Of a stretch of DNA of 64,000 bases, positions 29,800 to 30,715 are shown in pieces. Source of the stretch: Chiloscyllium plagiosum. Lineage: Eukaryota. The stretch covers positions 163,439-227,438 of the forward strand of contig NC_057753.1 in the NCBI RefSeq assembly GCF_004010195.1, in the 5' to 3' direction. A model generated the notes under the pieces. The model did no database searches, was not told the origin of the DNA, and saw nothing but the letters and a program-made list of their open reading frames with translations. Each line of letters begins with the position of its first letter. Position 1 is the stretch's first letter. Made by a program: the position numbers and the translations under genes.

Positions 29800-30715
29800 A
29801 GAATCCCGACAGTGTGGAGGCAGGCCATTTGGCCCATCGGTCCACACTGACTCCTCCAGAGAACATACCACCCAGACCCAGCCCACTTACCACTGCATTC
29901 CCCAAGGCTAACTCCACTTAACCTGCACACTACGGGTAATTTAGTACGCCCAATCCATCCAACCTGCACATCCCTGCACACTACGGGTAATTTAGTACGC
30001 CCAATCCATCCAACCTGCACATCCCTGGGCACTACGGTCAAAGTTGAAACTTTATTGCTGGAACAGCACAGCAGGTCAGGCAGCATCCAGGGAACAGGAG
30101 ATTCGACGTTTCGGGCACAGGCCCTTCTTCAGGAATTTAGCATGGCCAATCCATCCTAACCCGCACATCCCTGGGCACTATGGGTAATTTAGCATGGCCA
30201 ATCCACCCTAACCTGCACATCGCAGGACGCTATGGGTAATTTAGCATGGCCAATCCACCCAACCTGCACATCCCTGGGCACTATGGGTAATTTAGCATGG
30301 CCAATCCACCCTAACCTGCACATCCCTGGGCACTATGGGAAATTTAGCATGGCCAATCCACCCTAACCTGCACATTATTGGGCACTACGGTGTAATTTAG
30401 CATGGCCAATCCACCTTAACCTGCACATCCCTGGGCACGATGGGAAATTTAGCATGGCCAATGCACCCTAACCCGCACATCCCTGGGCACTATGGGTAAT
30501 TTAGCATGGCCAATCCACCCTAACCCGCACATCTCTGGGCACTACGGTGTAATTTAGCTCGGTCTATCCACCCTAACCTGCACATCTTTTATCTGTGGGA
30601 GGAAACCCACGCAGACATGAGGGGGGAAGGTGCCAACCGCAGCCAGACAGTCACCCCAAGGCTGGAATCGAACCCCGGTGCTGTGTGGCAGCGGTGGAGC
30701 CACTGAGCCACCATG
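29800..30715 (-). repeat. HE1 SINE with its internal 52-bp core tandemly amplified
   Basis: SINE tail near 29800, head near 30710, repeated core units between. Confidence 0.85.
30101..30136 (-). ncRNA. Intact minimal hammerhead ribozyme motif
   Basis: ATTC CTGAAGA A GGGC CTGT GCCC GAAAC GTC GAAT: perfect 4-bp stem I, 4-bp stem II, GUC cleavage triplet. Confidence 0.8.

What the first reader, a model, noticed from the sequence alone, without database searches (positions are those of the whole stretch)
30038..30136. Family of ~130-nt retroposons bounded by a minimal hammerhead ribozyme
Seen: at 30101-30136 (-) ATTC-CTGAAGA-A-GGGC-CTGT-GCCC-GAAAC-GTC-GAAT has a complete hammerhead core with perfect stems I and II and a loopless ACGT stem III. 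Copies occur at about 20063-20097, 23957-24018, 24480-24515, 32265-32299, 48993-49025, 56960-57030 and 61648-61681. The stem II loop varies (TCAT, CTGT, TTAT, TTTT) while the stem is mostly kept. Several copies end exactly at stem I. Known: Penelope-like elements carry minimal hammerheads that cleave as dimers through a palindromic stem III. Inference: a non-autonomous, retrozyme-like SINE family whose boundary is tied to the ribozyme, at roughly 1 copy per 8 kb here.
Basis: partly seen in the sequence, partly recalled or inferred. Interest (0 to 1): 0.8.

Follow-up and report, generated by a model that had tools for sequence, protein, structure and literature searches.

The report
Penelope retroelement stubs with hammerhead
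These 95-130-base repeats are not a separate mobile family but the ribozyme-motif-bearing end pieces of a very abundant Penelope-type jumping gene, and most of them likely start where that element's RNA starts rather than where the ribozyme is predicted to cut.

Summary
The motif and all listed copies are real; the flagged copy is 99 nt, and a perfect stem I is special to its subfamily. It is not an independent SINE or retrozyme. Copies 98-100% identical to it run upstream into a GIY-YIG endonuclease frame. Other copies run downstream from the tail into an RT-GIY-YIG ORF with the Neptune zinc-finger linker. In 1.35 Mb of evenly spread genome there are 194 insertions (about 0.5 million genome-wide by extrapolation), with Penelope hallmarks: two 3' ends, 57 head-to-head pairs, target duplications, and only one head-to-tail tandem. 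The 5' ends pile at the front of stem I (109 of 157 arms that reach it), not at the cut site (7 of 238). A T-rich box lies about 31 nt upstream of the pile, and the pile shifts with it between subfamilies and in a sister family. So the stubs are likely run-off cDNAs from internal RT start sites to the RNA's 5' end. A cap-G test gave no support, and no RNA start or cleavage was shown. This scan has noted the same stubs many times elsewhere in this genome. Verdict: new member of a known kind.

The parts
30038..30136 (-). Flagged copy: 99-nt stub (-4 to +94) of a young subfamily of a Neptune-type Penelope-like element, short-tail form; no target duplication, 3-nt ATT microhomology to the host repeat at its 5' junction
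   Evidence: 100% identical over 95 nt to L122, which continues upstream into the endonuclease C-terminus
30101..30136 (-). Minimal type I hammerhead motif: stem I ATTC/GAAT, core CTGAAGA + extra A, stem II GGGC/GCCC, GAAA, ACGT palindrome; predicted cut between 30105 and 30104; A at 30136 is the predicted transcription start of the parent
   Evidence: start inferred
30137..30586 (.). Host 52-bp minisatellite that the stub interrupts (units continue at about 29900-30037)
19980..20096 (-). Stub, long-tail form with a 9-nt deletion, starts at -2, palindrome decayed (ACAT)
23884..24017 (.). Head-to-head inverted pair (minus arm 23884-23978, plus arm 23978-24017), core of plus arm broken
24397..24515 (-). 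Older stub, long tail, core lacks CTG
32207..32299 (-). Stub starting at -4, 3' part runs into an assembly gap; stem II and U16.1 mutated
48901..49025 (-). Long-tail arm starting at +8, with a short inverted piece, beside an assembly gap
56898..57121 (.). Head-to-head inverted pair: short-tail minus arm 56898-56988, long-tail plus arm 56993-57121
61555..61682 (-). 128-nt long-tail stub, intact core, starts at -3, 12-bp target duplication overlapping the 5' junction by 3 nt

Best explanation
The repeats are hammerhead-plus-tail end modules of a high-copy Neptune-type Penelope-like retrotransposon, and most are likely run-off cDNAs made from the element's two internal RT start sites to the uncleaved 5' end of its RNA. 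Shown: the parent layout is hammerhead (0) - tail (ends near +90 and +124) - ATG at +162 - RT - CX4CxxC linker - GIY-YIG - about 150-nt UTR - T-rich box (-35) - hammerhead - tail, a unit of about 3.2-3.3 kb pieced by coordinates from overlapping natural copies. Inferred: Pol II starts at the A of TCATTCC (-4), about 31 nt after the box, so the hammerhead is the first 36 nt of the RNA. The element's protein nicks both target strands and primes at +124 on one and near +90 on the other. Priming on the tail near the RNA's 5' end runs off after about 95-128 nt and gives a solo stub; if both cDNAs join, the result is a head-to-head palindrome. Priming on the downstream tail gives the longer 5'-truncated and full-length copies. 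The template may be a full-length RNA or the RNA of any truncated copy that kept the promoter. The hammerhead is predicted to be nearly inactive as a monomer and does not set the boundary.
For: Parent link; 40,905 first-look RT candidates in the genome. Two 3' ends: 53 of 57 inverted pairs have one long and one short arm, 0 tail-to-tail; target duplication of 10 bp or more in 28 of 57 pairs and 13 of 46 solos, against 0-1 in each of 20 mismatched-flank controls. This matches the two RT start sites shown in vitro for anole PAc (PMC11167929). 5' ends: hazard 0.090/nt at -6..+3 against 0.001-0.015/nt in the eight bins outside -13..+3; 109 of 157 arms reaching +3 stop at -13..+3, and 7 of 238 stop at +26..+30. 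8 of 30 ORF-start-bearing copies also begin at -4..+2. TTTATC lies at -34..-37 in 41 of 50 long copies, although the UTRs are only about 70% alike between subfamilies. The box lies 1-2 nt further up in N7=T subfamilies, and their stubs extend past -4 more often (20 of 25 vs 4 of 13, p=0.005). A sister family with TATAAA at -38..-40 ends further up (9 of 28 at -7 or beyond vs 2 of 41, p=0.005). RNA reads of a related organism show flank junctions at -4 as well (104 reads). PAc RT reads through its hammerhead to the template end and uses uncleaved RNA.
Against: No excess of untemplated G before the -4 A (7 of 43, background 0.21), so cap copying is not seen. No pile of RNA starts or ends in the one raw-read run that covered the element, though those reads come mostly from copies inside host transcripts. 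TTTATC is not a consensus TATA box and could serve another role. The shifts rest on 1-5 nt, small counts, local-alignment ends and post-hoc cut-offs; the rank test on all arms was not significant (p=0.16); N7=T subfamilies are older and more varied. No single gap-free full-length copy was seen. In D. virilis Penelope the start lies 46 nt before an intron whose end abuts the hammerhead, a different layout.
Confidence: 0.7

Rival explanations
1. Same parent, but the 5' pile is an RT stop or template switch at the folded or protein-bound hammerhead, or a join favoured by ATT/palindromic microhomology, not a transcription start.
For: Ends sit at stem I; junctions often use 0-3 nt microhomology; PAc endonuclease prefers ATT; cap-G test negative.
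Against: An RT stall at a structure is expected on its 3' side (+20 or +32), where there is no pile. Other ATT/T-rich places (+29, -35) hold almost no ends (2 ends in -50..-14). The pile shifts with the upstream box, not with the core.
Confidence: 0.2
2. One reading: an independent non-autonomous SINE- or retrozyme-like family in which stubs are transcribed and beget stubs, with the ribozyme defining the unit.
For: Stubs far outnumber long copies (48 of 238 arms extend past the front). One small tail group (8 arms) had no long member in the sample. D. virilis Penelope has an internal promoter, and pLTRs can be mobilised in trans.
Against: 7 of 8 tail groups have long members, and the flagged stub is identical over 95 nt to an endonuclease-linked copy. 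Stubs lack the upstream box. Of 56 unpaired short arms, shared upstream sequence was found only for one mis-sorted long copy, inverted arms and one pair. There are no tandem arrays (1 head-to-tail case in 251 arms) and no pile at the cut site.
Confidence: 0.07
3. Stubs come from hammerhead-cleaved or circular RNA (dimer cleavage of the two terminal motifs, circularisation, rolling reverse transcription).
For: Core, N7 variability and ACGT palindrome are kept across subfamilies, with one compensatory stem II change in 4 arms. The model was proposed for PLEs in PMC4209133. Long copies could come from circles.
Against: A cleaved linear RNA would give ends at +28 (2 of 238 at +28); a circle would give no pile at -4.
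Confidence: 0.03

Closest known systems
Minimal hammerheads (min-HHR) in pLTRs of metazoan PLEs and their solo genomic copies (Cervera & De la Pena 2014, PMC4209133; read abstract, results, discussion)
   Same: No helix III beyond a palindrome, short helix I, extra nucleotide between 9 and 10.1, G10.1-C11.1, mostly single motifs from truncated PLEs, opposite-strand pairs.
   Different: Copy number (about 0.5 million insertions by extrapolation against up to about 9,000 motifs reported); stem II only 4 bp; 5'-end pile-up not described in the parts read.
Neptune clade EN+ Penelope-like elements (Craig et al. 2021, PMC8557442; passages)
   Same: RT, CX2-5CxxC linker, C-terminal GIY-YIG; 5' truncation, partial tandems, inverted 5' copy, 30-40 bp tail.
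   Different: No RT tree was built, so Nematis (same linker) is not formally excluded; most insertions are only the end module.
PAc Poseidon of Anolis (Frangieh et al. 2024, PMC11167929; read main text)
   Same: Two internal RT start sites that define the tail, both strands extended, uncleaved RNA as template.
   Different: In PAc the ORF starts in stem II; here the main ATG is at +162, after a predicted short upstream ORF. PAc is Poseidon. The both-strand link of long and short ends is seen here in 53 of 57 genomic pairs.
Non-LTR retrozymes of animals (Li et al. bioRxiv 10.64898/2026.07.22.740005; read parts 1-3 of 5)
   Same: Type I hammerhead, derived from PLE pLTRs, non-coding.
   Different: Retrozymes are defined as head-to-tail tandems with a hammerhead in each unit; here 1 tandem in 251 arms and 57 head-to-head pairs.

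Membership tests
EN+ Penelope-like element (Neptune type) | Single ORF with RT and C-terminal GIY-YIG | tested here: met
   L175 frame of 535 aa holds RVT_1 (E 1.5e-4) and GIY-YIG (E 2.9e-4), both below Pfam cut-off; L026 GIY-YIG passes cut-off; Atlas neighbours carry PF26215/GIY-YIG/RVT_1
EN+ Penelope-like element (Neptune type) | CX2-5CxxC zinc-finger linker between RT and EN | tested here: met
   C-x4-C-xx-C before the GIY-YIG motif in L010, L171, L175
EN+ Penelope-like element (Neptune type) | RT phylogeny within Neptune | not tested
   no named reference PLE proteins at hand; no tree built
EN+ Penelope-like element (Neptune type) | pLTR repeated before and after the ORF, with hammerhead | tested here: met
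   UTR-hammerhead-tail-ORF start in L227, L215, L216, L237; RT-EN-UTR-hammerhead-tail without gap in L014
EN+ Penelope-like element (Neptune type) | 30-40 bp optional tail and inverted 5' copy | tested here: met
   3' ends near +90 and +124; 57 head-to-head pairs, 53 long+short
Minimal hammerhead ribozyme | Core CUGANGA/GAAA/UH, stems I and II, palindromic 15.2-16.2 | tested here: met
Minimal hammerhead ribozyme | Covariation in stems | tested here: inconclusive
   One compensatory G-C to A-U in stem II in 4 of 116 arms; otherwise invariant or CpG decay; none in stem I. Sister families have other stem II sequences
Minimal hammerhead ribozyme | Self-cleavage (dimer or protein-assisted) | not testable with these tools
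   no RNA end pile at +28 in one unsuitable read set
Non-LTR retrozyme | Head-to-tail tandem units each with a hammerhead | tested here: not met
   1 direct tandem in 251 arms, and that one is a partial-tandem PLE
Non-LTR retrozyme | Circular RNA from double cleavage | not testable with these tools
   needs RNase R or long-read RNA data
SINE (independent non-autonomous family) | Own head (tRNA/7SL/5S) or own lineage distinct from the partner's end | tested here: not met
   whole stub is colinear with the parent end module; no Rfam match; 7 of 8 tail groups have long members

The most novel reading that the evidence does not exclude
In several Penelope families of this genome the RNA begins with the hammerhead itself, about 30 nt after a TATA-like box. 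Half a million 'strong-stop'-like cDNAs thus record the transcription start in DNA. The ribozyme is then a cap-removing switch: uncut RNA is the transposition template, and cutting removes the cap and retires the RNA or redirects its translation.
Probability: 0.3. Interest if true: 0.6.

Novelty: new member of a known kind. Interest (0 to 1): 0.27.

Why it matters
It is mostly ordinary Penelope biology at an unusual scale (about 1 insertion per 7 kb). The useful part is mechanistic. The genomic ends give in vivo support for two-site, both-strand internal priming, so far shown only in vitro. They argue that uncleaved RNA is the template and point to a testable start site at the hammerhead's first base. 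The flagged subfamily is young (10 sampled arms at 98-100% identity) and has the only perfect stem I, which makes it a good substrate for asking what PLE hammerheads do.

Tried and rejected
Cap-G test: negative. Splice acceptor as boundary: the AG lies at -26 in one subfamily, -9 in another and is absent in the flagged one, and ends do not pile there; rejected. Run search: no RNA holder listed on record; 'RNA?' contigs cannot show ends; X22 had no reads laid. PDB search: nothing relevant. Rfam: none. Single-strand folds are not more stable than shuffles (z -1.1 to 0.5). Dimer folding gave no hammerhead dimer as minimum-energy structure, and my hand-written dimer structure was mis-nested, so I draw nothing from it. 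The bacterial promoter scan was not applicable. A third family (TATAAA at -48..-53) had too few short copies (33 arms, several ends were reference artefacts) to test the shift. The sister family's link to an ORF was not found within 900 nt in 3 long copies. Literature: 0 papers for Penelope-like+shark+Neptune; 1 irrelevant for Penelope+shark+hammerhead ribozyme; 2 whale-shark papers listed but not read; two searches showed no paper on a start-site pile. Supplements of PMC11167929 (Fig. S2 genome coverage) and PMC4209133 were not looked at and may already show such ends or shark motifs.

Full report
Coordinates: 0 is the C of CTGA (C3) on the element's sense strand; the predicted cut lies between +27 and +28.

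Observation. The motif stands at 30101-30136 (-) as written and folds with stems I and II. All listed copies exist; they make 10 arms in 8 insertions, two of them head-to-head pairs. The flagged copy is 99 nt and sits in a 52-bp minisatellite. Only 2 of the 10 arms have an intact core and palindrome. A descriptor finds 120 motifs in the genome sample against 6 after shuffling. Rfam has no match. The host is a 3.56-Gb genome; 'shark-like' rests on my recall of its repeats and on earlier scan notes, not on a call that names it.

Parent element. Of the 29 best genome matches besides the window copy, 11 continue upstream through the hammerhead into a shared sequence. That sequence leads into a frame with an RT thumb, a C-x4-C-xx-C linker and a GIY-YIG domain. 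L014 holds RT, EN, UTR, hammerhead and tail without an assembly gap. Downstream, three copies continue from the tail into an ORF, whose ATG is at +161/+162 in four copies measured. L227, L215, L216 and L237 show UTR-hammerhead-tail-ORF in one piece. An RT query had 40,905 first-look candidates. The flagged stub is 100% identical over 95 nt to L122 and 98% to L255 and L241, all three with endonuclease coding sequence upstream. The linker marks Neptune (or Nematis) per PMC8557442 (passages); no tree was built.

Population. I took 140 evenly spread 10-kb regions (1,345,599 non-N bases). Of 331 hits, 72 belonged to a sister family and 8 were dropped for low score or duplication, leaving 251 arms in 194 insertions. 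That is 144 per Mb, or about 0.5 million genome-wide by extrapolation. 3' ends fall near +90 and +124 (minor peaks at +73 and +81 are reference artefacts). Of 57 head-to-head pairs, 53 join a long and a short arm; there is no tail-to-tail pair and one direct tandem. Target duplications of 10 bp or more flank 28 of 57 pairs and 13 of 46 short solos, against 0-1 in controls. This is the known inverted-pLTR-plus-tail layout (PMC8557442, PMC3846280 passages). It fits the two internal RT starts and both-strand extension shown for PAc (PMC11167929 main text).

5' boundary. Of 238 arms with a clean 5' end (13 at gaps or edges left out), 157 reach +3. Of these, 109 stop at -13..+3 (95 at -6..+3) and 48 run on, three of them re-sorted by hand as long. 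Only 7 end at +26..+30. So the boundary is real but is not the cut site. Copies that carry the ORF start show it too: 8 of 30 begin at -4..+2. Position -4 is the A of TCATTCC, which fits the initiator consensus YYANWYY (recalled). TTTATC stands at -34..-37 in 41 of 50 long copies across subfamilies whose UTRs are about 70% alike. It is 1-2 nt further upstream in N7=T subfamilies, whose stubs more often extend past -4 (20 of 25 vs 4 of 13, Fisher p=0.005; rank test on all arms p=0.16). A sister hammerhead family with TATAAA at -38..-40 ends further up (9 of 28 at -7 or beyond vs 2 of 41, p=0.005). Against this reading, no extra G marks a copied cap (7 of 43). In one RNA run of a related organism, 2,680 reads were laid on both strands and 93% ran into unlike flanks. 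Loose ends lay at -4, +15, +80/+85 and +125, with no pile of molecule starts or ends; these are passengers in host transcripts and test neither start nor cleavage.

Ribozyme. Among 116 ungapped arms the core is kept apart from CpG-type decay. Subfamily variation falls on N7 (56 T, 55 A), loop II and the third pair of stem I, and 4 arms carry a compensatory A-U in stem II. This suggests selection on the motif in source elements (inference). PMC4209133 (results and discussion read) reports such motifs as inactive as monomers and weak as dimers, and says most are solo pieces of truncated PLEs. Inverted pairs put the two motifs on opposite strands, so they cannot form a cis dimer.

Mechanism. Shown: parent, layout, two 3' ends, pairing rule, target duplications, 5' pile away from the cut. 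Inferred: transcription starts at -4, priming on the 5' tail runs off to give stubs, two such cDNAs join to give palindromes, and priming on the 3' tail gives long copies. I put the parent identity at about 0.95 and the start-site run-off at about 0.7.

Comparison. The stubs work like, and are parts of, a Neptune-type PLE. They fail the tandem criterion of non-LTR retrozymes (bioRxiv 10.64898/2026.07.22.740005, parts 1-3 of 5) and show no lineage or head of their own. Earlier notes of this scan on other pieces of this genome reached the same reading, including the hint of an RNA start; I read them after forming mine, and they are not independent support. The co-shift with an upstream box is not mentioned in the excerpts shown. 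I found no paper describing it, but subscription papers, Repbase/Dfam and supplements were not seen.

Verdict: real, abundant, a new member of a known kind; interest 0.27.

Noticed in passing
window 12853-12882 (-), 13330-13359 (+), 18431-18459 (-), 18905-18927 (-): Another minimal-hammerhead family (CTGAGGA, long stem II) with TATAAA at -53 in long copies; 12882/13330 form an inverted pair; upstream sequence in the sample looks like a Poseidon endonuclease end (recalled).
   Followed up: partly
window about 5245 (-): Copy of the sister family with stem II GGAGC/GCTCC and TATAAA at -38; 69 arms in the genome sample, two 3' ends near +84 and +123; ORF link not found.
   Followed up: partly
window 36433-36574 and 198-369: Inverted pairs of an older related family sharing the GATGCTGCC(A/T)GACCTGCTG tail core; 72 hits in the sample.
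   Followed up: no
window 10783-11796 (+): GC-rich C2H2 zinc-finger ORF with about 9 tandem fingers.
   Followed up: no
window 42962-46430: Large 102-bp and 51-bp minisatellite arrays; their CTGATGA...GAAA matches lack stem II and are not hammerheads.
   Followed up: partly
window 6362-7405 and 27110-28150; 18207-19145: A 1-kb duplicated segment, and a 468-bp tandem duplication that includes a hammerhead stub.
   Followed up: no
L189 (oriented) about 340-430; L227 1430-1560: Predicted 42-codon upstream ORF starting at +46 in the tail and overlapping the main ATG in another frame.
   Followed up: no
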